The notes below the pieces were generated by a model, which was not told the DNA's origin, ran no database searches, and saw nothing but the letters and a program-made list of their open reading frames with translations. The position numbers and the translations under genes were made by a program. A DNA stretch of 64,000 bases from Armatimonadota bacterium (GTDB taxonomy: Bacteria > Armatimonadota > Zipacnadia > Zipacnadales > JABUFB01), in contig JABUFB010000008.1 of assembly GCA_013314775.1 (NCBI GenBank), positions 725,036 through 789,035 of the forward strand, given 5' to 3'. Positions 14,461-51,875 of this stretch are shown here, one piece after another; the stretch's first letter is position 1, and each line of letters starts with the position of its first letter.

Positions 14461-17400
14461 TCAGTCGAACAGGCTGACGATTGCGCTGACGACCCAGAAC
14501 GAGTCACGGAGGGTGCGCCAGAGGTCTCCACGTGCCGGTGCGCGCGGCGGGACATAGAAAATGTCGCCGGGCTTCACCTTGACCGGGTCCGGCACCTTCC
14601 CCTGCCGCAGTTTGGCGAGGTTGATCTCGGTGTGTTCCGTGGTCCCGTCGGGACGCTTCCGGATCATGATCACGCGCTGTTGAGCGCCCGGCGCGAGGGC
14701 AGCGCGGCTGACAATGTCCATGATGCCCCATTCCGGGTCCAGCGGATACGGCCCCGGACGCCCCACGGCGCCCAGCACGTAGATCTCGTCCATTGCCGGC
14801 ACAACCACCACATCGCCGGGCTGCAGGTCCATGGTCTGATCCAGCGCACCCTCGTCCTGCAGGAGCCTCAGGTCCCTGTAGATCGGCTCCTGATCCGGGC
14901 GGTACACGGTCACGCGGGTCAGATCGGCAGTGGCGAGGGGCTGCATGAGCGTGACCACTCGCAGCAGGTCGCGGTTGGCCTTCTCGCGGATATTCACGGC
15001 GCCATTGCGCTGCAGGGCACCGAGGACCATGATGTTATTGACATCGTCCGTCGGCACATAAACCAGATCGCCGGGCTGGAGTTCGAGGTTCTGGGTCATG
15101 TCGCCCTCTTCGACAAGGGCGCGGTAATTGCGGACGATGGCTTCCCCGTCACGATAGATGGTTACGCGGTCCAGGCCGCCTTCGGGATTGGGTGAGGCCA
15201 GAGGCAGCAAGCGTACCAGGTCGCGCTCCTTCGCTCCGTGGATGCTGATCGCGCCGGGCCTCGCCACCTCGCCCGCGAACACCACCGTTTCGGTCGCCAT
15301 GGGCACGTGTACGATATCCCCCGGCTCGAGCATCATGTTCTGCGACGTGTCGCCCTCTTCCTCGAGCCGCGTGAGGTCGCGGACGATTCTCTCGCCCTTG
15401 CGGTAGACGCTGACCCGCGACAGATCGGCGGTGGGCCGATTCGGCCCCGCGAAGGTGACCGTAGCGAACAGGTCATTGCTGCGCCCGACTTCCTGGGGCA
15501 CAACGCCGGAGCGCATGACCTGGCCGGTGATGATGATGCTCCCCGTGCCAAGCTGGGGCACGAGCACCCGGTCGCCGTCTTCGAGAAGCAGTGTCTGGCT
15601 GGTGTCGCCCTGGTCGAAGTAAGCGCGCAGGTTTCGCACGATCACCTCATCGCCCCGATGGACGGTGACATTGGTCAGATCGGCCATGGGGTCCCAGCCC
15701 GCAGCGGTCACTACCCGGGCGAGATCGCGCTGCTCTTCGGTCACCAATTCGATGGTCCCGCGACGCTGGACGGCGCCGGTGATGAGGACGCTCACGGTGT
15801 CCAGGCCCGGGACGAGAATGCGGTCGCCGGGCAGGACCTCGGCATCCACCGGCACCGGCACACCTTCCTCCACTAGACCCTTCAGGTTGTACACGAACTG
15901 CTCGTCACCCCGGAACACTGTGACTCGCTTCAGGTCCGCATTGGGCAGCGGGCCGGATGCCAGCAAGGTATCCACCAGCCTGCGGTTCTCGGGGTCGGAG
16001 ACCCGCACCTGCCCCGCTCGTTGGACCGCGCCAGTGATGAGCGCCGTCCCGCGGTCGATGGGGATGACCACGAGGTCGCCGTCTTCCAGCTGGAGGGTCT
16101 GCGAGGTGTCGCCCTCGTACAGGTACGCCTGAACGTCGCGGGTGATCTTCTCACCGCCGCGATGCACCGTCACCCGGCGCAGGTCGGCGAAAGGAGCCGG
16201 TCCGGATGCGGCGATGAGCCGGGCAAGGTCCCGGGTATCCTCGTCGCCAAGGGCAAGGACGCCGGTGCGTCCTGCGGCGCCGGCCAGGAGAATACTGTCC
16301 TCGTATGCCGGGACCTTGATGATATCGCCGTCCTCCAGCAGGAAGCTCTGGGACAGGTCGCCGGTCTCGTATAGTTTTTTCAGGTCACGCTTGATCTGCT
16401 GTTCGCCCCGGAAGATAGTGACCCTGGACAGATCGGCGTTGGGCATCGGCCCGGCGAGAGTGACCACGCGCAGGAGATCGCGCTGTTTGTCATCGAAGAG
16501 CTGGATGCTGCCGGATCGGGCGACCGCGCCCATGACAAGGACGGTATGCTCAACGCGCGGCACCACCACCACGTCGCCATCCTCAAGCTGCAGTGAGTAG
16601 GCTTCCAGCCCGGTTTCGATGAAGGCCTTGATGTCGCGCTCCGTGGTATTGCCGCCGCGATGGACCTTGACGCGGGTGAGGTCGGCGTTGGGCAGCGGCC
16701 CGGCAAGGGTAACCAGGCGGGCCAGGTCACTCCGCGGGTCATCCGCAACGGTGAGCAGCCCCGCCTGGGCCACCGCACCGGTGATCAGAATATTGCGCAG
16801 CTCGCGGGCGGGGACCGTGATGATGTCTCCGGGCTCGACATACATGGACTGGGTGCGGTCGCCGTCTTGGATCATCGCCAGCAGGTTGCGGACGATCTTG
16901 TTCTGCCCGCGGTGGACGGTAACGTGTTCGAGATCGGCCTGGGGCAGAGGTCCGGCGGCCAAGATCAGGCTCGCGAGGTCGCGGTCAAGCGTTGGCACAA
17001 GCCTCAGCACTCCGCCTCGGCTCAGCGCACCAGTGAGCATGATGCTGTCTTCGACCACGGGGACGCGGATCATGTCCCCGTCTTCCAGGGCGAGAGTGGC
17101 CTGGCGATTGCCTTCCTCGATGTACGGTTTCACATTGACCAGAATCTGTTTGCCACCACGGCTAACCATGACCCGGGTCAAGTCGGCATAGGGCAGCGGA
17201 CCAGACATGAGGATCAGGCGGCCAAGATCGCGCCAGTCATCATCCACGAGGCGCACGATCCCGCCGCGCTCTACGGCGCCTGACAGAACCACGTTCTCGT
17301 CGATCTCCGGCACAACAATGACATCCCCGTCTTCCACAGGGATGCTGTTTTCCATGCGGCCTTCGTCCACCGCGGCCTGCAGATCGCGGATGATGGTCTC

Positions 17401-18996
17401 GCCATTGCGGTGGATGGTGACGCGTCTGAGATTGGAGCCCGTGCCCGGTCCGGAGACGGTGACGATGCGCAGAAGGTCGTGGTCTTCGTCCCGCGCGATC
17501 TGGAGCACTCCCTGGCGGGATACTGCGCCGGTCACAAGCACGCTGTCAACCTCCCGTGCGGGCACCATAACCATGTCGCCGGGTTGGAGGTCGAGATTCT
17601 GAGACAGGTCGCCTTCGTCCATGAGCGCCTGCAGATTGCGGACTATGGTCTCCTTGCCGCGATAGACGGTGACCCGGGTGAGGTCACTCATGGGGCCCGG
17701 GCCGGCGGTTGTGATGATGCGCAGCAGGTCGCGCTCGGTCACCCCGCGCAGGTTGAAAGTCCCGGTTCGCCCCAGCGCTCCCATGACCAGCAGCGTCTGG
17801 GAGACCCCTTCGGGAATCACCAGCACGTCACCGGGCAGCAGCGAGGATTCATCGGGGGCCTGACCAGCTTCGATGAACCGCTGCAGGTCTACACTGATGC
17901 TCTTGCCGGCCCGGATGATCTCCGCGCGGCTCAGATCCGCGGTGGCAGTGGGGCCGCCGGCGGCTGCCAGGCCCTGCAGGACGGGGATGGGGCTCCCCAT
18001 GCGGAAGACTTGAGGGGTGTTGACCTGTCCGACCACCGAAATGCTGCCGGCCTCGTGCACCACCAGTACATCCCCGCCGCGGAGCACATGGTTCTGGCTG
18101 GTACTGCCGCCCTTGAGCAGCGCGTTCAGGTCGATCTCAAGCGGGTCGGAATCGGCACGCAGGAGGATGGCGCGGGAGCGGTCGGCAATGGGAGAGAAGC
18201 CCTGGGACATGCGCAGGGCGTCAAGCACCCGCACTTCGCGGTCCACGGGGAGCAGGAGACTGCCGGGGGCCTGAACCTCCCCGAGGATCATGACTTCCTC
18301 GCGCACCCGAGGAACATAGACGGTGTCGCCATATTCCAGGCGATGTTCGTGCCCAAGACCGCCTTCACCTCGAAGGCCGCTGCAATCTACTTCGATGGGC
18401 TTACCGCCCGGGTGTGTGAGGCGCACCCGGCGCAAGTCAGCGTACGGGCCGGGACCGGCGGCGGCCACGGCGTCGGTGAGCGTGGAGCCAAAGGGCAAGG
18501 TGACCGCCCCGTTGCGGGACAGTTCGCCGGACACGTACACCTTGCGGATGGAATTGATCTCGTCCACGGTCACCTTGACCGACGGTTTTCGTACGAGCGT
18601 GCTGAGACGTTTGACCAAGAACGCCTCGGCTTCGCGCAGGGTCATCCCGCGCAAGCCGACCTGGCCGAGGAGGGGCATGGGGATGGATCCACCGGGGCCA
18701 ATGCGCGCGGCGGTGGAGAGCGTGGGCTCGTTGAAGACCACTATCTGCACCACATCGCCGGCGCTGAGCCGATAGTCGGTATCCACGGAAAAGCGGGGCG
18801 TGAGGGAGCGCACCGGCCCGGCCCCCGCTGTCCGGGACTTTGCTGAGGAGGCAGCCTGCGCGAGCGCTGTATCGCGGGAGGCCTGGTCGTCTTTGAGACT
18901 TGCCGCACAGGCGGTTCCAGCGCTGCAAGATACCAGGAGGGCGACGAGAAGGGCAACCCTTCCGAAGCCGGCCCTAGACGTGGCCCTGCGGAACAT
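14461..18996 (-). CDS. Giant Wza/KpsD-like polysaccharide export protein: signal peptide, N-terminal Poly_export (PES) domain, then about 16 tandem SLBB (soluble-ligand-binding beta-grasp) repeats
   Basis: Signal peptide MFRRATSRAGFGRVALLVALLVSCSAGTACAAS. PES domain YRLSAGDVVQIVVFNEP...LGQVGLRGMTLREAEAFL. About 75-aa units recur (DL.RV.V.RG...IVRNL.AL..EGD.SQN..L.PGD.V.VP....SVLVTGAV.R.G). GGGAGG lies 7 nt upstream of ATG 18996; the 45 codons upstream of this ATG in the ORF track have no RBS. Confidence 0.85.
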   Translation of the reverse strand: MFRRATSRAGFGRVALLVALLVSCSAGTACAASLKDDQASRDTALAQAASSAKSRTAGAGPVRSLTPRFSVDTDYRLSAGDVVQIVVFNEPTLSTAARIGPGGSIPMPLLGQVGLRGMTLREAEAFLVKRLSTLVRKPSVKVTVDEINSIRKVYVSGELSRNGAVTLPFGSTLTDAVAAAGPGPYADLRRVRLTHPGGKPIEVDCSGLRGEGGLGHEHRLEYGDTVYVPRVREEVMILGEVQAPGSLLLPVDREVRVLDALRMSQGFSPIADRSRAILLRADSDPLEIDLNALLKGGSTSQNHVLRGGDVLVVHEAGSISVVGQVNTPQVFRMGSPIPVLQGLAAAGGPTATADLSRAEIIRAGKSISVDLQRFIEAGQAPDESSLLPGDVLVIPEGVSQTLLVMGALGRTGTFNLRGVTERDLLRIITTAGPGPMSDLTRVTVYRGKETIVRNLQALMDEGDLSQNLDLQPGDMVMVPAREVDSVLVTGAVSRQGVLQIARDEDHDLLRIVTVSGPGTGSNLRRVTIHRNGETIIRDLQAAVDEGRMENSIPVEDGDVIVVPEIDENVVLSGAVERGGIVRLVDDDWRDLGRLILMSGPLPYADLTRVMVSRGGKQILVNVKPYIEEGNRQATLALEDGDMIRVPVVEDSIMLTGALSRGGVLRLVPTLDRDLASLILAAGPLPQADLEHVTVHRGQNKIVRNLLAMIQDGDRTQSMYVEPGDIITVPARELRNILITGAVAQAGLLTVADDPRSDLARLVTLAGPLPNADLTRVKVHRGGNTTERDIKAFIETGLEAYSLQLEDGDVVVVPRVEHTVLVMGAVARSGSIQLFDDKQRDLLRVVTLAGPMPNADLSRVTIFRGEQQIKRDLKKLYETGDLSQSFLLEDGDIIKVPAYEDSILLAGAAGRTGVLALGDEDTRDLARLIAASGPAPFADLRRVTVHRGGEKITRDVQAYLYEGDTSQTLQLEDGDLVVIPIDRGTALITGAVQRAGQVRVSDPENRRLVDTLLASGPLPNADLKRVTVFRGDEQFVYNLKGLVEEGVPVPVDAEVLPGDRILVPGLDTVSVLITGAVQRRGTIELVTEEQRDLARVVTAAGWDPMADLTNVTVHRGDEVIVRNLRAYFDQGDTSQTLLLEDGDRVLVPQLGTGSIIITGQVMRSGVVPQEVGRSNDLFATVTFAGPNRPTADLSRVSVYRKGERIVRDLTRLEEEGDTSQNMMLEPGDIVHVPMATETVVFAGEVARPGAISIHGAKERDLVRLLPLASPNPEGGLDRVTIYRDGEAIVRNYRALVEEGDMTQNLELQPGDLVYVPTDDVNNIMVLGALQRNGAVNIREKANRDLLRVVTLMQPLATADLTRVTVYRPDQEPIYRDLRLLQDEGALDQTMDLQPGDVVVVPAMDEIYVLGAVGRPGPYPLDPEWGIMDIVSRAALAPGAQQRVIMIRKRPDGTTEHTEINLAKLRQGKVPDPVKVKPGDIFYVPPRAPARGDLWRTLRDSFWVVSAIVSLFD
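14634..18564 (-). repeat. Divergent tandem coding repeats (about 225 bp period, roughly 16 copies) encoding the SLBB modules of the exporter
   Basis: The (E/P)GD..(V/I)VP and TGAV.R.G motifs recur every 73-78 aa in the translation. The DNA copies are diverged rather than identical. Confidence 0.75.
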
Positions 18997-19200
18997 GTAT
19001 TCGTCCTCCCCAGCTCGAGGTGTCTGCATTGTGCGTCGTCTATAGACTGCAATTCTTGCGGCAATTCGCCGCTGGGGTCGGCAGGCGGGCACAAATGGCG
19101 CCCGAAGCACGCCGCTGATATTATAGCACACTCATTCTGCCTAGACTATAGAGGGCCCCTCTTGGACAAGTCAAGCCCGCCGGCGGGCTACGAGGTCTGT

Positions 19201-42256: not shown

Positions 42257-43531
42257 TCAATGAACGGCGTTGAACTCGCGGATCGCGTCGAACATCGCCA
42301 GCAAATTCGGGACCGGCGTGTTCGGCTGGATATTGTGGATGGTGTTGAAAACGAACCCGCCTCCAGGAGCGAAGACTTCCAGGCGCTCCAGGACCTCGGC
42401 GCGCACTTCCTCGGGCGTGCCGAAGGGCAGCGTGCGCTGGGTGTCGACTCCGCCACCCCAGAAGGTGATGCGGTCGCCGAAATCCGCCTTCAGCCCCCGC
42501 GCCTCCATGCCATCCGCAGAGCATTGGACCGGGTTCAGGATGTCAAAGCCGGCGTCGATGAAGTCTTCCAGAAGCGGGCGAATGCCGCCGCAGGAGTGGA
42601 TGAAGGTCTTCCACCGGGTGTTCGCGTGGATCCAGTCATTCACCGCGCGATGGAAGGGCTTGAACAGGTCGCGGTAGCTCTCCACCGACGCAAAGGGCCC
42701 GCGCTGGGTCCCGAAGTCGGTCCCGGTAACCATTGCGACCTGCACGGCGTCACCAACCACCGCGGCGATGCGCTCGAGGTTGCGAAGGGCGATTTCGCAC
42801 TGTCTGGCGAAAACGATCTTCACATAGTCGCGGCGGGCGACCGTGGATATGTACCATTCCTCCACGTCGCGGATTCCCTTCGGATGCTTCAGGAAAGGCG
42901 CAGGGACAAGGGCAATGTCACCGAATCCAGTGCCGCCGAAATTGGCGACCACTGCCCGGTCTGACGCATCCAGGTCTGCAGCCAGAGTGCTGTAGCGCGC
43001 CAGTTCACCCTCAGTGACCGGCTGAAACTCCTCCAGATTGTCTTCAGGGTCCAGGCTCGCGTCGTCAATCGGCTCCTGTCGAATAATGCTGTCGAAGTAG
43101 AAGCCGCCCGCGGGCATCCGGCCACTGGGCGGCACAGTCTGGTCGCCGCCAGGGTACTGGAGCAGATCGCCGTTGGGTTCGGGCTGGGTGTTGAAGCCTC
43201 CCGGAACGAGGACCGGCGTCCCGTCCGGCATGTCCCAGGGCTTCCAGTCCTCGGCGGGGTACCCGAAGAGGGTGTCCTTCCCGCCGATGCCCACGGTGTC
43301 GATGCCCAGAGCTTCGCGCAGATCATCGGTGACTTCGCCCAGCATCTGGTACGGCTCGATCACCCGTACGCGATCACCGGGCTTGTCAAGACCCAGCGCC
43401 AGGCGCAGCTTCGACAGCGTAGACGCAGAGATGCCCGAGACCGGCGTGGCGCCGATGTCCAGGGGCACGCGGTCAGGCTCGCGATGGTCGATTGCCGCAA
43501 GGACTCTCTCGCGGGAGGTCATGTCGCCCAC
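42257..43531 (-). CDS. Uroporphyrinogen-decarboxylase (URO-D)-family protein of unknown substrate
   Basis: Length and layout match the UroD/MtaA-like TIM-barrel family (VPLDIGATP..., GGFVFNTIHNIQPNTP...). It sits among carbohydrate-related genes. Confidence 0.55.
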   Translation of the reverse strand: MGDMTSRERVLAAIDHREPDRVPLDIGATPVSGISASTLSKLRLALGLDKPGDRVRVIEPYQMLGEVTDDLREALGIDTVGIGGKDTLFGYPAEDWKPWDMPDGTPVLVPGGFNTQPEPNGDLLQYPGGDQTVPPSGRMPAGGFYFDSIIRQEPIDDASLDPEDNLEEFQPVTEGELARYSTLAADLDASDRAVVANFGGTGFGDIALVPAPFLKHPKGIRDVEEWYISTVARRDYVKIVFARQCEIALRNLERIAAVVGDAVQVAMVTGTDFGTQRGPFASVESYRDLFKPFHRAVNDWIHANTRWKTFIHSCGGIRPLLEDFIDAGFDILNPVQCSADGMEARGLKADFGDRITFWGGGVDTQRTLPFGTPEEVRAEVLERLEVFAPGGGFVFNTIHNIQPNTPVPNLLAMFDAIREFNAVH

Positions 43532-44552: not shown

Positions 44553-46475
44553 TCAGAGCTGGTTCTGCTCCCAGGGATTGTCCGGCGGCGGCGCTGGTCG
44601 ATTCAGTCTTCGGAGCAGGTCCTCTATGTCCCGTTCATCCCCCGGCCGGTCCAGGTCCATCGCGAGTTCGGGGCGGTCCAGGATCATCAGTTCGCAGCGC
44701 GCGGCACCGGTCATCCGTTCCAGAAGGCGCGCAAGCGCGGATATGCTCGTGCCGGCCCGCGGGCTGACAAACCCGACCAGGAAGCGGAGCAGAAACCCCG
44801 GCCCGGCGAGTGAGGCGGCAAGCCACGGGCGCCTGCGCAGGACCAGAAACTGCTCCAGAGCGCCACGGAACTCGGCCGCCGCGTCCGGCCGCACCAGCGC
44901 GACGCCGGTGTGGGTCACCCAGCCTTCTTTCACAGGCAGCCAGGCCCAGTGGCGCTCCGGGGCCACCATCTCCGCGGAATCCCGCGACACCAGGGGGAGA
45001 CACAGCTCGGCGTCGCCCGAGCAATGCGCCAGGAACTCGCAGAGCGCCGCGGGAGTGACCGCAGGCAGGTCGCAGGTGACCACCAGGACCCGACGGTGTG
45101 TGCCTATGTCCTCGATGGCGCCCAGCAGGTTCGCGGTGAGCCCCGGCCGTTCTACGATGAGCCGGTCCGCCTTGCCCTCGCCGACCATCTCCCCCAGCAG
45201 GTCATCCGGACCGGCGATGGTGATGCTCTGGACATTGGGCACTTTTCGCAGGGCGTCTATGATGTGGGCGATGCTCGGCTTGCCCAGGATCGGTATCAGC
45301 GCCTTGTGCCCCCAACCGGTCCATTCGGCGAGATCGCGGCCCGAGCTTCCACCGGCGAGGATCAGAGCATCCACATGCTCGCGCGACTCCTGCGGGGTCT
45401 GGCACGCCGCAGAGACGGCAGCGCCCGGGACACGTCTGGTGGAAGGCTCCAGCCAGACCCGCTCGGCCCGACGCTGCGCAACGCCCGTGAGCTTGTCGTC
45501 CTCCAGTAGTCCACGGCGCCGCAGCATGACGTGCTCGAACCCTACGGCGATATGCGCGCCAAACAGGAGCGTCTGGGAGCCGATGAAGGACCACAGTGAG
45601 AAAACGACGACGCCGGTGAGGCCACCGTAGATCGTGCCGAACTGCTGTGACTGAGCGATAATGCTGGTGAATATGTGAGAGACAAGGAGCCACAAAACCG
45701 TCGCGCCCAGTGAGCCCGCCAACACTGCCTGATTAGGGACGCGCTGGACAGGCATGAGCTTGTACACAAGGGCGAACGCCACCCAGACCAGCAAGATCTG
45801 GACGGCCTCCACGAACCATGGCTGAGCGGCGTCCAGAATTGCTGGATTGATCTCCGGGAACTGCAGCAGCCACGTTCGCACCGAGGCCCACAGGGCGTTG
45901 AGAAGCATGAAGCTCCCCAGGAGCAGTCCTGCCACCACCATGCTGTTGAACGCCACCAGCTTCCGGGTGAGGTATCCGCGCGTGATCTTCCCCGGCCAGA
46001 CCTCTGTCAGGCTGCGCTCCAGGGTTTCGAAGAGGCGAATTGCGGCCCAGATCACGGTAACGAGACTTGCGGCGAAGGCAAGATACGCATTGCCCTGCCC
46101 CACGAGTCCGTATGCATCCCCCGAACCCATGGTGCCGATGGGATTTGCAAGCAGCCCCTCGACCATGGGGATGATCCGGTCAGCGGCATTTGGGCCAAGC
46201 TCCCGCGCCGCCTCGCGGATGCGTTCGTACACATCAGTCCCGGGGCCCAGGAGCATCTGCAGCCCGGCGGCGAGGAGCACGGCCAGCGGACCCAGGCAGA
46301 TCAGGGAGTAAAAGGCCACCGCAGCGGCCATGAAATGGGTGCCCGTGAAGTAGAAGCGCAGGTATGCGATCCTGGCAATGCGCAGCCAGAGCACCGCGAT
46401 GCGCAGCGGCGCCCGGGCAACCCGGACAGCCAGTTTCTCCGGTTCAGGGTCTGTCATGTCGCCTTCTCTCAGCAT
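44553..46475 (-). CDS. Fusion protein: N-terminal YihY/BrkB-family integral membrane domain (formerly called RNase BN-like) plus C-terminal MobA-like nucleotidyltransferase (NTP_transf_3) domain
   Basis: N-terminal roughly 330 aa with YihY signatures (YLRFYFTGTHFMAAAVAFYSLICLGPLAVL..., multiple TM helices). C-terminal ALILAGGSSGRDLAEWTGWGHKALIPILGKPSIAHIIDAL...VLVVTCDLP, typical of MobA/MocA-like nucleotidyltransferases. Confidence 0.7.
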   Translation of the reverse strand: MLREGDMTDPEPEKLAVRVARAPLRIAVLWLRIARIAYLRFYFTGTHFMAAAVAFYSLICLGPLAVLLAAGLQMLLGPGTDVYERIREAARELGPNAADRIIPMVEGLLANPIGTMGSGDAYGLVGQGNAYLAFAASLVTVIWAAIRLFETLERSLTEVWPGKITRGYLTRKLVAFNSMVVAGLLLGSFMLLNALWASVRTWLLQFPEINPAILDAAQPWFVEAVQILLVWVAFALVYKLMPVQRVPNQAVLAGSLGATVLWLLVSHIFTSIIAQSQQFGTIYGGLTGVVVFSLWSFIGSQTLLFGAHIAVGFEHVMLRRRGLLEDDKLTGVAQRRAERVWLEPSTRRVPGAAVSAACQTPQESREHVDALILAGGSSGRDLAEWTGWGHKALIPILGKPSIAHIIDALRKVPNVQSITIAGPDDLLGEMVGEGKADRLIVERPGLTANLLGAIEDIGTHRRVLVVTCDLPAVTPAALCEFLAHCSGDAELCLPLVSRDSAEMVAPERHWAWLPVKEGWVTHTGVALVRPDAAAEFRGALEQFLVLRRRPWLAASLAGPGFLLRFLVGFVSPRAGTSISALARLLERMTGAARCELMILDRPELAMDLDRPGDERDIEDLLRRLNRPAPPPDNPWEQNQL

Positions 46476-46527: not shown

Positions 46528-47061
46528 CTACCGCAGCTTCGCGAGCGAGCGGATCAGGTCCAGGTCCAGCTCGCCTTTCTGCCCCCAGCCCTTCTTGCCT
46601 GACGCGATCTGTGGCCGGAAACGCTCATACAGCTCATAGCCTGCCTCCGCGAGGGCTTCTGGTTCCAGGGAGTCCGCGAGCGCACGCATGGCGTCGCGCA
46701 CCCGGTCGAGGTCCGCGCCGAATTTGTTCTGAAGATATGTGCGGACCTTCTCTGGATCAATGGCCTCGTCCTTGACCACAGCTCGCAAGCCTGCGTCTGT
46801 GTTTTTGGCAGGGACCGGCCTGCCAAGGACCTCCACCCAGAACTCCTCGCCGAGACCCTTCTTCTTTGGTTTGCCCTCTTCATCCAGGTGCCTCGGGGGG
46901 CCGAAAACGCCCAGGCTCCGGCCCTTGGACTGGGCGTTGAGGCCCGCCAGGGCTTTCCCGAGGGTGAGCGCCGCATCCTCGTCGTGCCCAAGGCGTTCGC
47001 ACACCACTGCGGCCCAGAGCGCAAGAACGGGGGCCCTGTTGATCTGCACCGTGTCAGCCAT
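46528..47061 (-). CDS. Hypothetical protein (177 aa, charged, no recognised domain)
   Basis: ORF with plausible codon usage, tightly spaced after the upstream gene. No homology recognised from the sequence alone. Confidence 0.4.
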   Translation of the reverse strand: MADTVQINRAPVLALWAAVVCERLGHDEDAALTLGKALAGLNAQSKGRSLGVFGPPRHLDEEGKPKKKGLGEEFWVEVLGRPVPAKNTDAGLRAVVKDEAIDPEKVRTYLQNKFGADLDRVRDAMRALADSLEPEALAEAGYELYERFRPQIASGKKGWGQKGELDLDLIRSLAKLR

Positions 47062-47240
47062 TCACCACACCTCCATGACAACAGTTCGCCCGGGAAGAGA
47101 CCATCGCCTGCATGCCCCGCTGAAGGGATTACTGCTCGGGAGCGGAACCTGTCTCCGGCAGACAGCTGTACCGCTGCCGCCGCGCCGGATACCGAACTGG
47201 TGCGGCCCGGGCAATATCGGACTTGGGAGGACTGATGCGA

Positions 47241-48182
47241 ATGTCGCGAGTGTTTGTATTGATAACGTGCGCGCTGTGCCTGGTTGTGCCTTCTTCGGCC
47301 CAGCAGAACGCTGCCGCGCGCCGGGCGCTTCTATTGACACTCAAGCCAGGGCAACTCGCGGCTGTCGAGCGGCTTTCGGCATCACTCCATGACCCCGATC
47401 CGGTGGTAGCGCGCACGGCGGCCCGTCTTCTCGGACAGTTTGGAGATGCCGCCTTGCCATCCTTGCGCAAAGCGCTGCAAAGCAACGATCTGCTGGTTCG
47501 GCGCAATGCGGTGGCGTCCCTGGGAGCTATCGGGAAGCCCGCCGTAGCCGACCTCATGCAGGCGATGAAAGATCCGCATGTGCTGATCCGGCAGGCAGCG
47601 GTGTTTGCGCTGAGCCGGGTGCGGCCCATGTCTGATGAGGTCTCGCAGGCCATCGCCCTCGCCACATCGGACGAACAGCAACTCGTGCGCGACGCGGCGC
47701 TGGATGTCCTGCGAACGCGGTTCGTCACAGTGCGCACGATTCCCCTGCCGGAGGAGGACTGGAAATTCAGGACCGACCCGGACAACCAGGGCGAGCAGGC
47801 CGGCTGGTTCGCAGCTGACCTGGACGATGCCGGCTGGCTGGACATTGGCATCGGCAAGTCGTGGGAGGAGTTCGGGCACACCTACGATGGCGTGGCGTGG
47901 TACCGCAGGACCGTGGAACTGCCCGCCATCGATCCGCCACCGGCCCGGGCGGTGCTGGCTTTCGGTGGGGTGGATGAAGACTGCTGGGTGTGGATCAACG
48001 GGAAGTCCGCCGGAGCCCATGCCATCGGCCCGATGGGTTGGGACAAGCCCTTCCGGCTGGATGTGAGCCATGCGATCAAGTGGGGCCAGGCCAACCAGAT
48101 CGCGGTGAAGGTGAATGACTCGGCCTTCGCAGGCGGCATCTGGCGGCCGGTGGAATTGCTGGCGCTGGAGGAGGCGGATTAG
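47241..48182 (+). CDS. Secreted HEAT-repeat (PBS-lyase-like) protein fused to a GH2-N-terminal-type sugar-binding jelly-roll domain
   Basis: Signal peptide MSRVFVLITCALCLVVPSSAQQ. Three to four HEAT-like repeats (DPDPVVARTAARLLGQFG, NDLLVRRNAVASLGAIG, DPHVLIRQAAVFALSRV, DEQQLVRDAALDVL). C-terminal WYRRTVELP...VLAFGGVDEDCWVWINGKSAGAH...FRLDV...NQIAVKV resembles a beta-galactosidase sugar-binding domain. GGAGG lies 10 nt before ATG 47241. Confidence 0.65.
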   Translation: MSRVFVLITCALCLVVPSSAQQNAAARRALLLTLKPGQLAAVERLSASLHDPDPVVARTAARLLGQFGDAALPSLRKALQSNDLLVRRNAVASLGAIGKPAVADLMQAMKDPHVLIRQAAVFALSRVRPMSDEVSQAIALATSDEQQLVRDAALDVLRTRFVTVRTIPLPEEDWKFRTDPDNQGEQAGWFAADLDDAGWLDIGIGKSWEEFGHTYDGVAWYRRTVELPAIDPPPARAVLAFGGVDEDCWVWINGKSAGAHAIGPMGWDKPFRLDVSHAIKWGQANQIAVKVNDSAFAGGIWRPVELLALEEAD

Positions 48183-48185
48183 CCG

Positions 48186-49790
48186 TCACGGCGCGTTCTC
48201 AGGCCGCTTGCCAATGGCTTCTGCCTCGGTTGCTGTCTTCACTTCAACCGGCCGAGCCCGCGCGCCTACCTTCACGGACAACGGGTCAAGCACCACCAGA
48301 TCATCCACAGTGAGACCCTCGAGTATCGCCGTGCCCTCATCCGTGCGCGGGCCGGGAAGCACCGGGCGCCGCCGGATGTGTCCGCCTTCAACAAGAAGCA
48401 CGTATGCCTCCTGCCCCACGCGCACGAGGCACGCTTCAGCTACCGCCGGGAGCTGCCGGTCCGCATCCACGATGATGTCGGCAAGAGCGGGCTTTCTGCC
48501 TTCCACTGCGTCGGCGCTCGCGTTCAGTTGCAGTGTAACGGTGACCACTTCCCGCTCGTCACCGGGCTCAGGCACTTCACTCACCGTGGCTTCGAAGCTC
48601 TCGTCTGGCGAACCGCGCAGCGCGACGCGTGCGGTCTGGCCGAGACGGATGCGCGCTGCATCCCTCGCCGGGACCTGCACGCGGGCGACGGGTGGTCTGG
48701 CTTCCGCGATCGTGAGCACCACTGATTCGGCGCTCACGAAGTCGCCCTCTTGCCGCAGGACCTCGGTGATAATGCCGTCGAAGGGCGACTTGACGTCAGT
48801 TGTCCGGAGGGACGCGTCGATCTGGTCGCGCAGGTTCTCGGCACGTTCCAGGCGCTCCAGGGCAGCCTTCAGGCGCTCGTCCAGGGCCTGCCGACGCTTC
48901 TCCAATATGTTCGGGGCAGGCTCAGGCCCATCTGTAGACTGCTGCTCGCGCAGGGCGGCGACATAGCGCGCTTCGGCATCCTCCAGCGCGCGCCGGGCCT
49001 TCTCGAGCTCCTCGCCCAGCTCCCTCCTCGCGCGGGACCGCAGGGCATCTGAGCGCTCCTGCGCCGCGGCCAGGCCCCGCTTCGCGGCTTCGAGCTTCCG
49101 CGTGGCACGGTCCAGATCAAGCTGAGCCTGGGCCAGGACTTCAGGTTCCTTCTTCCCCTCGGTCATCAACTGCCGGGCGTGGTCGCGCAGCTTCGTCATT
49201 CGGTCCACGTGGGCCTGCTCGATCTCCAGGCGACTGCGGGCGCTCTCAAGCTCCTTCGTCGCGTCCTTCATCTCGCGCATGGCATCCCGGGAATCCGACG
49301 CTTCCTTGGCGAGACGGGCGAACTCCTCGCGGAGGCGCCGCACCTCATTCCGGGCCTGTGCAAGTGTGTCGGTGGCTGCCAATTCCGGCGTGCTGTCGGG
49401 TTCACGCTCGATGGCTCGTCGCACCGCGTCCAGTTCAGCGCGGGCATCCTTGACCACGGCTTCAGCACGCTCCAGGTCTCGAGCGCCGCTCTGGGAACCA
49501 AGCCGCGCGATGACCTGGTTCGCGGACACTTCGCTGCCCGGTGTGACCAGCATCTGCACAATGATGCCTGGGTCGTGCAAGGTCAGCTCAACCTGCTTCG
49601 GGCCCAAGACGACGCCGTCCACAGAGAGGATTTCCGGCGCCAGGGTCATGCGCGGGCGAATGACCTCCACCGGTGCGGGACGCGCCACTGACCAGAGCGC
49701 GGCGCCTGCGGCGAGGATGCCGATAATCGCCCCGACGAGCAGCCAACGCCGGGTACGCGTGTCGTATGACGGCGGGGTCTCGGGCGTCAT
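48186..49790 (-). CDS. HlyD-family secretion / efflux periplasmic adaptor protein (membrane fusion protein) with a long coiled-coil
   Basis: N-terminal TM anchor RRWLLVGAIIGILAAGAALWSV. Long coiled-coil (REEFARLAKEASDSRDAMREMKDATKELESARSRLEIEQAH...). C-terminal beta-barrel/lipoyl-like segments. Start could instead be TTG 49931. Confidence 0.7.
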   Translation of the reverse strand: MTPETPPSYDTRTRRWLLVGAIIGILAAGAALWSVARPAPVEVIRPRMTLAPEILSVDGVVLGPKQVELTLHDPGIIVQMLVTPGSEVSANQVIARLGSQSGARDLERAEAVVKDARAELDAVRRAIEREPDSTPELAATDTLAQARNEVRRLREEFARLAKEASDSRDAMREMKDATKELESARSRLEIEQAHVDRMTKLRDHARQLMTEGKKEPEVLAQAQLDLDRATRKLEAAKRGLAAAQERSDALRSRARRELGEELEKARRALEDAEARYVAALREQQSTDGPEPAPNILEKRRQALDERLKAALERLERAENLRDQIDASLRTTDVKSPFDGIITEVLRQEGDFVSAESVVLTIAEARPPVARVQVPARDAARIRLGQTARVALRGSPDESFEATVSEVPEPGDEREVVTVTLQLNASADAVEGRKPALADIIVDADRQLPAVAEACLVRVGQEAYVLLVEGGHIRRRPVLPGPRTDEGTAILEGLTVDDLVVLDPLSVKVGARARPVEVKTATEAEAIGKRPENAP

Positions 49791-50008
49791 GGGGACTCTC
49801 GCGCGGGATGAGTGAGCGCCTGCGGACCTGTGCAGATAGTACTCCACGCGGGGAGAGACGGCAACGGAGAAGCGAAGCAGGCTGGAAACGCGCAGTACAG
49901 GGTTTGTGGGAGTGTTCTGACCCGCTGCCAAGTCTCCCCTCCGCTCAGGCGTAGTTTTGCGGCACGTTGGCTGCTTATCTTGCGGACGTTACAAGCACCA
50001 CCCGTCCG

Positions 50009-51190
50009 TCAGAACCTCGGGTTCGGCCCGACCACTTCCGGGCGTTCCTCGGCCAATTCCTTCGCCATCGCCTTCAGGCGCGCATCCGCGTGCTCGAAGA
50101 GCATCCTGTATGATTCGCAGAAGTAGCTCGGGCCGTTGATAGTGCCGAGGCCGGTGAGCCGGTGTCGCTGACAGCCACCGTGGCACTGGCCGAACCAGGG
50201 GCAGTCCTCGCACCCGCACCCTGTCCGGGCCTTGTCGAACCGAAACTGCATGAACTTCTCGGAGAGCGCGATCTCTCGCAGCGGTGTCTCCATTACATTA
50301 CCCAGACGGTATTCCGGCTCCACGAAAAAGTCGCAGGGATAGACGTCGCCGTTGTGCTCGATGAGCAGATAGTCCGCGCACGTCCGGCGCATGTCGCACG
50401 ATGGGCACTCGTGGCCGAGATAGACCATAAGCAGGTCGTCCATCATGCGCACGTAAGTTCGCGGTGCTGATTCCGCTTGCCAGCGGTCGAAAATGGTGCA
50501 CAGGAACTCGCCAAACTGTCGTGGGGTGCAGTTGTACGGACAAAGCTTCCCCGTCTCCGGATCGCGCTCGATGCACGGGATGAACTGCAGATAGCGGAAG
50601 TTGTGCTGCATATAGAAGTCGTAGATCTCGTCGGCCTTGTCGCCCGAGTATGCGGTGACCATGCACAGGATGTTGAACTCTGCGCCATTTCGGTCGAGTA
50701 TTTCGGTGCTGCGCATGACCCGGTCCCATGTAGATTCGCCGGTGGGCGTGCGGCGGTAATGGTCGTGGATGTGCTTCGGGCCGTCGAGACTCACACCGAT
50801 GAGGAAGCTATACCTTCGGAAGAACCGGGCCCACTCATCATTGATGAGCATGCCGTTGGTCTGCAGGCCGTTGGCGATGTTTTGGCCAGGCCGCGCTTTC
50901 TGAAGCTGGACAGCCACCACGCTGCGAAAGAAATCCACACCGAGAAGTGTGGGTTCACCACCTTGCCAACCGAAAGAGGGATTGTCGCCAGACATCTCCA
51001 TGTACTCACCTATGAGCCGGTGCATGACCTCGCGCGACAGCCTGTGGCCGCCGCCGGGATAAATCGCGTGTTTCGGCAAGTAGAAACAGTACTCGCAGCG
51101 CAGATTGCAGTCAGGTCCGGCGGGCTTGATGAGCAAGCTGAGACTGCGCAGGTAGGCTTCGGGGTCGGTGATGCGGATGTCTGTGTCCAT
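50009..51190 (-). CDS. Radical SAM / SPASM-domain maturase of the anaerobic sulfatase-maturating enzyme (anSME) family
   Basis: CNLRCEYCFY (CxxxCxxC) and GGEPTLLG motifs. C-terminal Cys-rich SPASM region (CPSCDMRRTCADYL...CDFF...CGCEDCPWFGQCHGGC). ATG 51190 = MDTDIRITDPEAYL.... Confidence 0.8.
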   Translation of the reverse strand: MDTDIRITDPEAYLRSLSLLIKPAGPDCNLRCEYCFYLPKHAIYPGGGHRLSREVMHRLIGEYMEMSGDNPSFGWQGGEPTLLGVDFFRSVVAVQLQKARPGQNIANGLQTNGMLINDEWARFFRRYSFLIGVSLDGPKHIHDHYRRTPTGESTWDRVMRSTEILDRNGAEFNILCMVTAYSGDKADEIYDFYMQHNFRYLQFIPCIERDPETGKLCPYNCTPRQFGEFLCTIFDRWQAESAPRTYVRMMDDLLMVYLGHECPSCDMRRTCADYLLIEHNGDVYPCDFFVEPEYRLGNVMETPLREIALSEKFMQFRFDKARTGCGCEDCPWFGQCHGGCQRHRLTGLGTINGPSYFCESYRMLFEHADARLKAMAKELAEERPEVVGPNPRF

Positions 51191-51875
51191 GAGCGCGGGT
51201 ATGCCTCGTGGGGTCCCGAAATGGGGGTGACCGCTTCCGGGCCGGTGGTTATAATATGGGCCATAATACCCACACCGGCCCCCGCGAAGCAACCGGGGGA
51301 GGGTGGTCATGTGGCAGGGGCCCCATCCGCCCATCATGGGTCACGCCGGGAGAAGCGAAACACACGGAGGGCGCTGCACTGTCGGCGTCTATGCCCTGTC
51401 GCCGCCGTGAAACCCCGGTGGGGCCGTCCGTATGCAGCCAGGGGCGGGCGCCCCTGGAATCAGGTGTACGCGACCGCAGAGACGCGAAGCCCCAGCGGGC
51501 AGACAGGAACCGCTGCTCATCTGCCGCCCCCGTTGGGGGCTGACGTCGGACTGCAACCGAGGACGGAGCGCGCGTCATCAATACGGTTGTGTTCGCGGGA
51601 GCGCTTTGCCCCGCATGAGTTGGACACACGTGTGCTCATCGTTCACCTGGAGTTCGAGGGACTCGGTGACTGACTCGGCTGACACTTGAGCCGCCCACCC
51701 CGCCCCGGAGATAACATGGCGCGAATTGGCAAGAACAGGTATGTCTATCCACAGGCACTGATCCCATCCCGGGGTCAGTGCCTGCTTCCGTATGCCTGAT
51801 CGGGGCCGTGCACGGGCCCACTTCGCGACCACACCGGCGGCTTTCCCCGCCTCAAACTCACAGGAGCAATACGTG

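What the first reader, a model, noticed from the sequence alone, without database searches (positions are those of the whole stretch)
44553..46475. Fusion of a YihY/BrkB membrane protein to a MobA-like nucleotidyltransferase
YihY/BrkB proteins (once misannotated as RNase BN) are polytopic membrane proteins of unknown function. Here roughly 330 aa of YihY are fused in one ORF to a complete GT-A-like MobA/MocA nucleotidyltransferase domain (GGxS nucleotide-binding loop present). A membrane-tethered NMP-transferase suggests a nucleotidylated small molecule being made or modified at the membrane, which could give a functional clue for the whole YihY family. The fusion sits just upstream of a DapA-like aldolase, a UroD-like protein, GH130 and a mutarotase.
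Basis: partly seen in the sequence, partly recalled or inferred. Interest (0 to 1): 0.6.

Follow-up and report, generated by a model that had tools for sequence, protein, structure and literature searches.

The report
YihY membrane protein fused to nucleotidyltransferase
This is a genuine but rare gene, so far seen only in Armatimonadota-type bacteria, that joins a six-helix membrane protein of unknown function (YihY/BrkB) to a cytoplasmic nucleotide-transferring enzyme of an equally uncharacterised family, which gives a modest, testable clue to what this subgroup of YihY proteins does.

Summary
Window 44553-46475 (-) is one ORF of 640 aa (probably 634, starting at M7). It has a YihY/BrkB domain with six TM helices and both ends cytoplasmic, a ~45-aa linker, and a complete ~260-aa NTP_transf_3 domain. 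It is not a frameshift artefact. The same architecture occurs in at least 10 independent contigs (32-88% identity). One lineage carries it as two translationally coupled genes (TGATG overlap preceded by a Shine-Dalgarno sequence).

The interpretation needs correcting in four ways:
- The enzyme domain is not MobA/MocA. It belongs to the uncharacterised TTHA0179 (PDB 2DPW) family.
- Most stand-alone members of that family sit directly after ispE, not next to YihY.
- The YihY-linked enzymes form one clade with their own motif (T-H-T instead of F-T-G-G-N), which suggests a different substrate.
- The DapA/UroD/GH130/mutarotase neighbourhood is conserved only in the 88% orthologue.

The fusion is rare: about six 50%-identity clusters among 1.84 billion representatives, and both named examples are from Armatimonadota. 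YihY-only relatives are nested among the fusions.

The best reading is membrane-coupled nucleotidyl activation of an unknown substrate. It is a new domain combination of two known but functionally unsolved families, and of moderate interest.

The parts
44553..46475 (-). Whole ORF, 640 aa from the first ATG; the TGA stop is at 44553-44555. The likely true start is M7 at 46457 (634 aa).
   Evidence: NCBI NSW56368.1 and orthologue P0002 start at the M7 equivalent. There is a GAGAAGG sequence 5 nt upstream of M7.
45534..46334 (-). YihY/BrkB (PF03631) membrane domain, aa 48-314. It has six hydrophobic helices at aa 46-79, 128-152, 172-199, 218-246, 250-275 and 286-307.
   Evidence: Pfam E 8e-34. 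Hydropathy and K/R distribution indicate N-in/C-in. The AF2 model shows the matching helices. The topology agrees with that reported for E. coli YihY in bioRxiv 10.64898/2026.03.31.715626.
45453..45509 (-). Conserved helix after TM6 (aa 323-341, LLEDDKLTGVAQRRAERVW). It is the cytoplasmic tail of the YihY module.
   Evidence: Helix H323-341 in the model. D326 is invariant in alignment A1, and the segment is also present in the YihY-only P0007 and in the split YihY of L070.
45378..45452 (-). Variable interdomain linker, aa 342-366.
   Evidence: Length and sequence vary among the fusions. pLDDT is 50-64. The linker is absent from the split-gene form.
44601..45377 (-). TTHA0179-type NTP_transf_3 nucleotidyltransferase domain, aa 367-625, facing the cytoplasm.
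   Evidence: Full-length match to 2DPW_A (E 6.3e-15 with the single sequence; 5.7e-60 with the profile). Foldseek TM-score 0.90 normalised to 2DPW. pLDDT above 90.
45348..45359 (-). L-A-G-G nucleotide-binding loop (aa 373-376).
   Evidence: G375 is present in 14/14 YihY-linked and 26/26 other family members. It aligns with the GlmU LAAGKG loop.
45303..45305 (-). K391, equivalent to the conserved lysine of GlmU in the motif (Y/P)KVL.
   Evidence: K or R in 14/14 YihY-linked members. That this lysine is GlmU K25 is from my own knowledge.
45063..45071 (-). D469-L-P471, the D-x-P metal-binding motif.
   Evidence: D and P are each present in 14/14 YihY-linked and 25/26 other members. The motif aligns with G-D-(T/A)-P-L of GlmU.
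44907..44915 (-). T521-H522-T523, a motif specific to the YihY-linked clade. It replaces the (F)-T-G-G-N of ispE-linked and stand-alone members, and is the putative acceptor-substrate pocket.
   Evidence: H522 is present in 13/14 YihY-linked members against G in 23/26 others. T523 is present in 14/14 against G in 21/26 others. Its role as a substrate pocket is inferred by analogy with sugar nucleotidyltransferases (own knowledge).
44643..44657 (-). D607-L-D609-R-P611, the C-terminal D-x-D-x-P motif of NTP_transf_3-type enzymes.
   Evidence: D607 is present in 11/14, D609 in 12/14 and P611 in 13/14 YihY-linked members; both D residues are present in 26/26 others. The motif aligns with the D-V-D-L-P-A-D end motif of FbiD 7P97.

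Best explanation
The gene encodes one polypeptide made of two functionally coupled modules. The N-terminal module is a six-helix YihY/BrkB inner-membrane protein with both ends in the cytoplasm. A flexible linker of about 45 residues holds a catalytically competent TTHA0179-type nucleotidyltransferase at the cytoplasmic face of the membrane. The most likely mechanism is that the enzyme module condenses an NTP with a phosphorylated or acidic small-molecule substrate, giving an NMP-linked (activated) product plus pyrophosphate. It would do this next to the YihY module, which binds or translocates either that substrate (uptake followed by activation) or the activated product or its lipid-linked acceptor (envelope tailoring). 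Shown here: the architecture, the topology (by inference), retention of the nucleotide- and metal-binding residues, long-term co-inheritance of the two modules both as a fusion and as a translationally coupled gene pair, and a clade-specific change in the presumed acceptor pocket. Inferred, not shown: catalytic activity, which NTP is used, the identity of the substrate, and the direction of coupling. The ispE linkage of sister-clade enzymes and the published link of E. coli YhjD to lipid A precursors make an isoprenoid- or envelope-related substrate the leading guess, but only weakly.
For: Both domains score above Pfam gathering thresholds. The full-length fusion is found in P0002-P0006, P0022-P0024 and the junction fragment P0031, and in L037, L038, L039, L042 and L051, at 32-88% identity. 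A split form exists: a YihY gene (322 aa, 48% identical to the window's N-terminal half) followed by NTase P0029, with a TGATG overlap and an AAGGAGG Shine-Dalgarno sequence, in three contigs. All YihY-associated NTases form one clade in an NJ tree, with the split form nested inside it. G375, K/R391, N449, D469 and P471 are each conserved in 14/14 members. The topology is N-in/C-in (preprint). The same NTase family is independently fused to an MFS_2 transporter (P0067), a second case of tethering to a polytopic membrane protein. The closest characterised folds are sugar-, polyol- and sugar-acid nucleotidyltransferases: GlmU, KdsB, IspD and NeuA. PF12804 enzymes commonly make CMP/CDP-activated head groups for surface tailoring (PMC6697681). 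YhjD, a YihY paralogue, binds rough LPS and has been implicated in lipid IVA transport (PMC3219608).
Against: There is no experimental information on any member of the TTHA0179 family or on YihY itself. The canonical P-loop arginine of GlmU/IspD/MobA-type enzymes is not conserved: position 377 is R in 10/14, and position 380 is R only in the window protein. The chemistry may therefore be atypical, or the domain may only bind a ligand. The fusion has no conserved operon partner that could name the substrate. YihY-only proteins are nested among the fusion proteins, so the enzyme module is dispensable or can act in trans. None of about 25 related YihY-only loci and none of 21 Chthonomonadales NTase loci shows the other partner nearby. 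The interdomain geometry is not reliably predicted (pTM 0.59). The MFS_2 fusion is a single cluster with one member.
Confidence: 0.55

Rival explanations
1. The C-terminal domain is a non-catalytic, nucleotide- or ligand-sensing regulatory domain. It gates or regulates the YihY membrane module, as cytoplasmic CBS or TrkA-type domains do in other transporters.
For: The canonical P-loop arginine is not conserved. The lysine equivalent is replaced by E or C in some stand-alone family members (5 E and 1 C out of 26). The family has no demonstrated activity. YihY-only relatives manage without the domain.
Against: Within the YihY-linked clade, the GG loop, K/R391, N449, D469-x-P471 and the C-terminal D-x-D-x-P motif are almost all retained, which is what purifying selection on a catalytic site predicts. 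The same domain exists as a free soluble protein in many genomes, in operons with a metabolic enzyme, ispE.
Confidence: 0.15
2. The fusion is a neutral accident: two functionally unrelated neighbouring genes were joined by loss of a stop codon and then carried along in one lineage.
For: The fusion is rare and restricted to one lineage. There is no conserved wider neighbourhood. The NTase module appears to have been lost repeatedly.
Against: The association persists from 88% down to about 32% identity, and between two Armatimonadota MAG proteins that are only about 37% identical. The one split form keeps the two genes translationally coupled with an evolved ribosome-binding site. The associated NTases share a derived active-site motif, T-H-T, which indicates adaptation to the partnership. 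A second, independent membrane-protein fusion exists (MFS_2).
Confidence: 0.1
3. One reading: a MobA/MocA-type enzyme (molybdenum-cofactor-type nucleotidylation) working with the downstream DapA-like, UroD-like, GH130 and mutarotase genes in one sugar-related pathway.
For: All five genes are on the same strand with short gaps (83 bp between the fusion and the DapA-like gene). The arrangement is kept in L037. Foldseek ranks sugar-acid cytidylyltransferases (KdsB, NeuA) among the nearest characterised folds, and the neighbour resembles NanA/DapA aldolases. In Firmicutes a GntR/FCD regulator lies beside or is fused to family members. This fits a sugar-acid theme, but only speculatively.
Against: The MobA, MocA, CofC, IspD and GlmU equivalog models are all far below their cutoffs. 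None of the more distant fusion loci (L001, L002, L003, L038, L039, L042, L051), nor the split-pair locus L070, has these neighbours. Synteny at 88% identity carries no functional information.
Confidence: 0.07
4. Artefact: two separate genes joined by a sequencing or assembly frameshift, or by a missed stop codon.
For: The window comes from a MAG. One relative, L051, does show its NTase part broken over two frames.
Against: There is one open frame with uniform GC3 across the junction, and stops in both other frames. The same uninterrupted architecture appears in at least 10 independent assemblies from different samples and sources: NCBI, JGI, ENA and Logan.
Confidence: 0.02

Closest known systems
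TTHA0179 of Thermus thermophilus (PDB 2DPW, a structural-genomics 'hypothetical transferase') and its stand-alone relatives annotated 'nucleotidyltransferase family protein'
   Same: The C-terminal domain aligns over the whole 232-aa chain (E 6.3e-15 with the single sequence, 5.7e-60 with the profile; Foldseek TM-score 0.90). It shares the L-A-G-G loop, N449, D-x-P, the R-K-x-P helix region and the C-terminal D-x-D-x-P motif.
   Different: TTHA0179-type proteins are soluble, about 230-260 aa long, and carry F-T-G-G-N where the window protein has V-T-H-T-G. Sampled relatives sit directly downstream of ispE in 15 of 21 Chthonomonadales loci, in three Firmicutes-type clusters and in a third context, L036. 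The window's domain is fused to a membrane protein, and no ispE lies within the 64-kb window. No function is known for either group.
YihY/BrkB family (PF03631): E. coli YihY and YhjD, Bordetella BrkB
   Same: The N-terminal half matches PF03631 end to end (profile positions 7-256 of 259) and has six TM helices with cytoplasmic termini, as described for E. coli YihY.
   Different: It is a divergent member: TIGR00765 scores 56.6 bits, below its cutoff of 73.15. It carries a C-terminal enzyme domain. YihY function is unknown. Only YhjD has functional data, on LPS and lipid IVA handling (PMC3219608).
NCBIfam NF003256 / PRK04214 'ribonuclease BN/unknown domain fusion protein' (YihY plus another C-terminal cytoplasmic domain)
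   Same: It is a precedent for a YihY module carrying an extra C-terminal cytoplasmic domain. The window protein matches its YihY part (profile positions 103-271 of 412).
   Different: The appended domain is different. There is no match to the C-terminal part of that model, and the score of 34.6 bits is far below the cutoff of 500.
MobA / MocA molybdenum-cofactor nucleotidyltransferases (the name-giving members of PF12804)
   Same: Same GT-A-like superfamily, with a shared GG loop, lysine, D-x-P and C-terminal D-x-D-x-P-type motif.
   Different: The equivalog models fail (33.7 against 164 bits, 23.5 against 151.85 bits, and no MocA hit). The match covers only the first ~110 residues. The window's domain is about 70 residues longer and has a helical insertion (aa 530-590). 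GlmU, FbiD, KdsB and IspD are equally close.
MFS_2 transporter-NTase fusion P0067 (671 aa, metagenomic)
   Same: An NTase of the same family (30% identical, aa 434-662) is fused to the C-terminus of a polytopic membrane transporter. It branches next to the YihY-linked clade.
   Different: The membrane partner is unrelated to YihY. The motif is F-T-G-S-N, not T-H-T. It is known from a single sequence on a 6.3-kb contig, and its context was not examined.

Membership tests
YihY/BrkB (Pfam PF03631, Virul_fac_BrkB) | Score above the Pfam gathering threshold over most of the model | tested here: met
   117.9 bits against a cutoff of 33.7; profile positions 7-256 of 259.
YihY/BrkB (Pfam PF03631, Virul_fac_BrkB) | Six transmembrane helices with N and C termini in the cytoplasm | tested here: met
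   Six hydrophobic segments, with K/R-rich N-terminus and TM2-TM3 loop. Helices are present in the AF2 model. This matches the published description. It is a prediction only; no experimental topology exists.
YihY/BrkB (Pfam PF03631, Virul_fac_BrkB) | NCBIfam TIGR00765 (yihY_not_rbn) or NF002457 (BrkB equivalog) cutoff | tested here: not met
   56.6 bits against 73.15, and 52.7 bits against 307. It is a divergent subfamily, not an orthologue of E. coli YihY or of BrkB.
NTP_transf_3 / MobA-like NTP transferase superfamily (PF12804) | Score above the Pfam gathering threshold | tested here: met
   53.7 bits against a cutoff of 27.
NTP_transf_3 / MobA-like NTP transferase superfamily (PF12804) | Nucleotide-binding GG loop, conserved lysine, D-x-P metal site and C-terminal D-x-D-x-P motif | tested here: met
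   L373-A-G-G376, K391, D469-L-P471 and D607-L-D-R-P611 are present and conserved across the clade. The P-loop arginine is not conserved.
NTP_transf_3 / MobA-like NTP transferase superfamily (PF12804) | Nucleotidyl-transfer activity | not testable with these tools
   This needs an enzyme assay.
MobA (molybdenum cofactor guanylyltransferase) / MocA | NCBIfam equivalog cutoff (NF001457, TIGR02665, TIGR03310) | tested here: not met
   33.7 bits against 164, 23.5 bits against 151.85, and no MocA hit for the window protein.
MobA (molybdenum cofactor guanylyltransferase) / MocA | Closest solved relatives are MobA or MocA | tested here: not met
   2DPW scores 5.7e-60. MobA at 3.2e-7 ranks behind GlmU, FbiD, KdsB and IspD. 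MobA is not in the Foldseek top 50.
IspD (MEP cytidylyltransferase) | TIGR00453 equivalog cutoff | tested here: not met
   There is no IspD hit for the window protein. The stand-alone relative P0008 scores 19.2 bits against 181.3.
TTHA0179-like nucleotidyltransferase family (no curated model; defined here by PDB 2DPW and alignment A2) | Full-length sequence and fold match, including the C-terminal helical region and the final strand with the D-x-D-x-P motif | tested here: met
   Query residues 3-247 align to chain residues 4-229. TM-score 0.90 and rmsd 2.4 over 248 columns.
TTHA0179-like nucleotidyltransferase family (no curated model; defined here by PDB 2DPW and alignment A2) | F-T-G-G-N motif and a gene position directly downstream of ispE | tested here: not met
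   The window has V-T-H-T-G. No ispE lies in the 64-kb window. The window's domain therefore belongs to a distinct, YihY-linked sister clade.

The most novel reading that the evidence does not exclude
The YihY-linked and ispE-linked branches of the TTHA0179 family together define a previously unrecognised nucleotidyl-activation step. It would act on an isoprenoid-pathway or envelope-precursor metabolite at the cytoplasmic membrane face, and this subgroup of YihY proteins would be the dedicated transporter or flippase for that substrate or for its activated, possibly lipid-linked, product. If so, the fusion would give the first biochemical handle on the widespread YihY/BrkB family, and on an uncharacterised enzyme that accompanies ispE in at least three different genomic contexts.
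Probability: 0.15. Interest if true: 0.75.

Novelty: new variant of a known kind. Interest (0 to 1): 0.45.

Why it matters
YihY/BrkB is one of the widely conserved bacterial inner-membrane families that still has no assigned function; a 2026 preprint says so explicitly. Conserved fusions and translationally coupled pairs are among the few sequence-only clues to function. Here the partner is an enzyme domain that can be expressed as a soluble protein, and a relative has already been crystallised as 2DPW. The hypothesis of membrane-coupled nucleotidyl activation can therefore be tested with standard pyrophosphate-release or LC-MS screens. The work also turned up a separate, stronger regularity: the same uncharacterised enzyme family is usually encoded directly after ispE. 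That may point to an unrecognised activity associated with the MEP pathway or with envelope-precursor supply. Two limits apply. The fusion is rare and restricted to one lineage, and the enzyme's substrate is unknown. It therefore informs only one YihY subclade, not the whole family.

Tried and rejected
1. Frameshift or assembly artefact: rejected, given the single open frame, uniform GC3, stops in the other frames and at least 10 independent assemblies.

2. MobA/MocA identity: rejected.

3. Conserved operon with DapA/UroD/GH130/mutarotase: rejected. It is kept only in the 88% orthologue.

4. YihY next to stand-alone NTases: none within ±6 kb in the 21 Chthonomonadales loci, nor in L004-L010 and L033-L036.

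5. NTase or ispE next to close YihY-only genes: none in L011 or L040-L064.

6. A genome scan with the diverse alignment A2 failed because it had no conserved stretch. The narrower alignment A3 reached only Chthonomonadales, so ispE linkage could be quantified in one order only, plus single sampled loci elsewhere.

7. Modelling the membrane domain alone gave mean pLDDT 60, and Foldseek against the PDB gave nothing significant (best E 0.4). This is uninformative. The CysZ/AAC resemblance reported for E. coli YihY could not be checked.

9. Literature searches for TTHA0179, 2DPW, PF03631 with PF12804, and ispE with nucleotidyltransferase found no description of this architecture or of the enzyme family.

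10. The promoter and terminator scan around the gene gave nothing above shuffled expectation that bears on operon structure.

Full report
**1. Observation**

The ORF list shows one 640-aa ORF at exactly 44553-46475 on the minus strand.

Pfam places Virul_fac_BrkB (PF03631) at aa 48-314 (E 8e-34, 117.9 bits, cutoff 33.7). It places NTP_transf_3 (PF12804) at aa 370-494 (E 3.5e-14, 53.7 bits, cutoff 27).

Simple hydropathy gives six hydrophobic helices: aa 46-79, 128-152, 172-199, 218-246, 250-275 and 286-307. The N-terminus and the TM2-TM3 loop are rich in K and R. The predicted topology is therefore N-in/C-in, which puts the C-terminal domain in the cytoplasm. A 2026 preprint describes the same topology for E. 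coli YihY (bioRxiv 10.64898/2026.03.31.715626).

GC3 is 0.68-0.88 in every 50-codon block across the junction, and both alternative frames contain stops there.

The second ATG (M7, 46457) has a GAGAAGG sequence 5 nt upstream. The first ATG has no such signal. NCBI's identical protein (NSW56368.1, Armatimonadota MAG, on a 1.13-Mb contig) and the 88% orthologue both start at M7.

**2. The fusion is not an artefact**

The word-indexed search found five further full-length two-domain proteins at 88, 50, 48, 43 and 36% identity.

An exhaustive phmmer scan of 1.84 billion 50%-identity cluster representatives found these full-length fusions:
- P0002, P0003, P0022, P0023 and P0024;
- P0031, a fragment that spans the junction.

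The metagenome scan added L037, L038, L039, L042 and L051.

The linker (aa 342-366) varies in length and sequence, while both domains are conserved. This is what a real interdomain linker looks like.

The two proteins that carry source names are both from Armatimonadota MAGs and are only about 37% identical. Every 90% cluster has only 1-3 members.

The architecture is therefore old within that phylum but rare. Of 3912 hits with E below 1e-3, almost all match only one of the two domains.

**3. What the enzyme domain is**

The C-terminal 274 residues align end to end with PDB 2DPW chain A, the 232-aa 'hypothetical protein TTHA0179' of Thermus thermophilus (E 6.3e-15).

A profile of the domain (alignment A2) gives these PDB matches:
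- 2DPW: 5.7e-60, over its full length;
- GlmU 4.8e-9, FbiD 6.2e-8, KdsB 6.7e-8, IspD 2.2e-7, MobA 3.2e-7. The GlmU, KdsB, IspD and MobA matches cover only the first ~100-140 profile positions; FbiD matches positions 39-118 and, separately, the C-terminal D-x-D-x-P motif.

The AF2 model of the full protein has pLDDT above 90 throughout this domain. Foldseek against the PDB puts 2DPW first (TM-score 0.90 normalised to the target). GlmU, KdsB, IspD and NeuA follow at roughly equal scores, and MobA is not in the top 50.

The NCBIfam equivalog models for MobA, CofC, GlmU and IspD are all far below their cutoffs.

'MobA-like' is therefore only the name of the Pfam model. The domain belongs to an uncharacterised family represented by TTHA0179, on which I found no literature.

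Family-wide conserved residues are the L-A-G-G loop, N449, D469-x-P471, R547-K/R548, G558 and the C-terminal D607-x-D609-x-P611 motif. In the alignments to GlmU, K391 lines up with the (Y/P)-K-V-L lysine and D469-x-P with G-D-(T/A)-P-L.

The canonical P-loop arginine is not conserved. This is the main reason to doubt canonical chemistry.

**4. Genomic associations of the enzyme family**

*Stand-alone relatives and ispE.* Stand-alone relatives (about 250 aa) are abundant. Their context is strikingly regular.

In each of these sampled loci the gene lies immediately downstream of a GHMP kinase gene:
- Desulfofundulus (L004/L005);
- another Firmicutes-type locus (L010);
- Chthonomonas calidirosea (L006/L007);
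- a metagenomic lineage (L008/L009).

In L006-L009 the NTase gene overlaps the kinase gene directly. In L004/L005 and L010 a GntR regulator gene lies between them. The kinase is unambiguously IspE: TIGR00154 scores 211-259 bits against a cutoff of 138.7.

A genome scan returned 21 Chthonomonadales loci.

Three further samples:
- a Firmicutes-type cluster: ispE-GntR-NTase-purR-glmU-prs-...-pth (L034/L035);
- an unrelated context: gatC-gatA-x-GHMP kinase-NTase with touching genes (L036);
- a Deinococcus contig where the upstream gene is accA, though the contig is short (L033).

Fusions of the family to RidA/YabJ (P0123) and to a GntR-type FCD domain (P0257) reflect the same Firmicutes neighbourhood.

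None of these loci has a YihY gene within the sequence held. The 64-kb window has no ispE and no second NTase.

*Link between the enzyme and YihY outside the fusion.* The stand-alone NTase closest to the window's domain is P0029 (263 aa, 38% identical). In three contigs (L070-L072) it is encoded directly after a separate 322-aa YihY gene.
- The YihY stop codon and the NTase start codon overlap as TGATG.
- An AAGGAGG Shine-Dalgarno sequence lies about 8 nt upstream.
- That YihY protein is 48% identical to the window's N-terminal half.

This is a split, translationally coupled version of the same unit, so the pair is a classic Rosetta-stone case.

*Phylogeny.* In an NJ tree of NTase domains, all YihY-associated sequences form one clade: 11 fusions, the split P0029, P0034 and the junction fragment P0031. 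P0029 is nested inside it.

This clade has T-H-T-(C)-N where ispE-linked and other stand-alone members, including TTHA0179, have F-T-G-G-N. H522 is present in 13/14 members against G in 23/26 others. T523 is present in 14/14 against G in 21/26 others. By analogy with sugar nucleotidyltransferases this stretch probably lines the acceptor-substrate pocket (inference from my own knowledge). If so, the YihY-linked enzymes likely act on a different substrate from the ispE-linked ones.

In the YihY tree, YihY-only proteins (L040, L043, P0025; up to 57% identical to the window's N-terminal half) are nested among the fusion proteins. That tree has no support values. None of about 25 such YihY-only loci has an NTase or ispE in the sequence held.

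The simplest history is one origin of the association, followed by repeated loss or relocation of the enzyme module.

*Second membrane fusion.* P0067 (671 aa) joins an MFS_2 transporter to an NTase of the same family. It branches next to the YihY-linked clade. It is known from a single sequence.

**5. The local neighbourhood**

L037, the 88% orthologue, keeps the window's gene order: HEAT/GH2_N protein, small hypothetical, fusion, DapA-like.

The other fusion loci have unrelated neighbours:
- L001: peptidase M19, a beta-propeller protein and pilin-like paralogues;
- L002: DUF2334 and FGE-sulfatase;
- L003: MTTB and an epimerase;
- L038: a GH42-like protein;
- L039: an S9/DUF2920 hydrolase;
- L042: a GyrI-like protein.

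L051 and the split-pair locus L070 likewise lack the DapA/UroD/GH130/mutarotase genes.

The DapA/UroD/GH130/mutarotase context therefore carries no functional information about the fusion.

**6. Mechanism**

*What is shown:*
- a membrane module and an enzyme module that have been inherited together for a long time, either covalently joined or translationally coupled;
- the enzyme module lies on the cytoplasmic side;
- its nucleotide- and metal-binding residues are under conservation;
- its presumed acceptor pocket has a clade-specific form.

*What I infer.* The enzyme transfers an NMP from an NTP to a phosphorylated or acidic small molecule at the inner membrane face. The YihY module binds or moves either that substrate or the product or its acceptor. 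Two directions are possible:
- uptake followed by activation, which the parallel MFS_2 fusion favours, since that Pfam family consists of secondary solute transporters;
- supply of an activated head group to a lipid-linked acceptor that YihY handles. This is favoured by the only functional data in the family: E. coli YhjD binds rough LPS, co-purifies with LptB and has been implicated in lipid IVA transport (PMC3219608).

PF12804 enzymes often make CMP/CDP-activated head groups for surface tailoring (PMC6697681). The ispE linkage of the sister clade hints at isoprenoid or envelope-precursor metabolism. Because the pocket motif differs, that hint transfers only weakly to the fusion.

I put about 0.55 on 'functionally coupled, catalytically active membrane-tethered nucleotidyltransferase'.

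**7. Comparison with what is known, and novelty**

Both domain families are known, and neither has an established function in this form.
- A YihY protein with a different C-terminal domain already has an NCBIfam model (NF003256).
- The protein itself is in NCBI nr, annotated simply as a YihY/BrkB family protein or as an NTP transferase domain-containing protein.
- I found no paper describing the PF03631+PF12804 architecture, the TTHA0179 family, or its linkage to ispE. As of April 2026 YihY is still called a protein of unknown function.

This is therefore a new domain combination (a new variant) of known kinds, not a new kind of system.

Its value is as a hypothesis generator for one YihY subclade. 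The side observation of a conserved ispE-NTase pair also deserves follow-up.

**8. Limits**

- The interdomain geometry is unreliable (pTM 0.59).
- The membrane domain modelled alone is poor (pLDDT 60) and finds nothing in the PDB.
- The trees are NJ trees without support values.
- The ispE statistic comes mainly from one order, plus a handful of other loci.
- I could not examine whole genomes, so it is unknown whether fusion-bearing genomes also keep an ispE-linked copy or a canonical ispD.

Noticed in passing
L004:6396-8762, L006:7090-8753, L008:7063-8948, L010:6261-8765, L034:4441-6768, L036:5174-6723, and 15 of the 21 loci L012-L032: Stand-alone TTHA0179-type nucleotidyltransferase genes lie directly downstream of ispE (CDP-ME kinase), often overlapping it. 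In Firmicutes-type clusters a GntR regulator gene lies between them. This holds in Chthonomonadales, in Firmicutes-type clusters and in a third context. I found no description of this pairing in the literature. It may mark an unrecognised activity linked to the MEP pathway.
   Followed up: partly
P0067 (671 aa, ENA metagenome, 6.3-kb contig): An independent fusion of an MFS_2 transporter (aa 2-390) to an NTase of the same family (aa ~433-662). It is a second case of this enzyme tethered to a polytopic membrane protein. It is a single sequence, and its context was not examined.
   Followed up: partly
P0123 (379 aa) and P0257 (380 aa): Fusions of the same NTase family to RidA/YabJ (Ribonuc_L-PSP) and to the FCD ligand-binding domain of GntR regulators. 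These mirror the genes next to it in the Firmicutes ispE-...-purR/spoVG-glmU-prs clusters.
   Followed up: no
window 46528-47061 (-): A 177-aa ORF lies 52-70 bp upstream of the fusion on the same strand. It has no Pfam or NCBIfam hit. A counterpart (200-aa ORF, L037:1651-2250) lies at the same position in the 88% orthologous locus, but not in more distant fusion loci.
   Followed up: partly
window 47223-48182 (+); L037:628-1572 (-): A protein that combines HEAT repeats with a GH2 N-terminal sugar-binding domain and has no catalytic GH2 domain. It is conserved next to the fusion in the close relative.
   Followed up: no
window 42257-43531 (-): The 'UroD-like' protein matches only the C-terminal ~140 residues of the URO-D model. 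It weakly matches MtaA/CmuA methyltransferase models (37 bits against a cutoff of 235), so it is neither a true UroD nor a clear MtaA. It sits between the GH130 and DapA-like genes.
   Followed up: no
window 48186-49931 (-) and 50009-51337 (-): A HlyD-type membrane-fusion protein with a long coiled-coil, next to a radical SAM/SPASM enzyme. They lie just beyond the fusion's neighbourhood.
   Followed up: no
window 14461-19131 (-): A very long ORF (1556 aa). It was not examined.
   Followed up: no
L051:1676-4237: The most distant fusion locus (32% identity) has its NTase part split over two reading frames. This is either a frameshifted pseudogene or an assembly error.
   Followed up: no
L001:3286-6673: Four tandem paralogues with prepilin-type N-terminal methylation motifs plus SBP_bac_10/DUF1559-like regions lie next to the P0006 fusion gene.
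   Followed up: no
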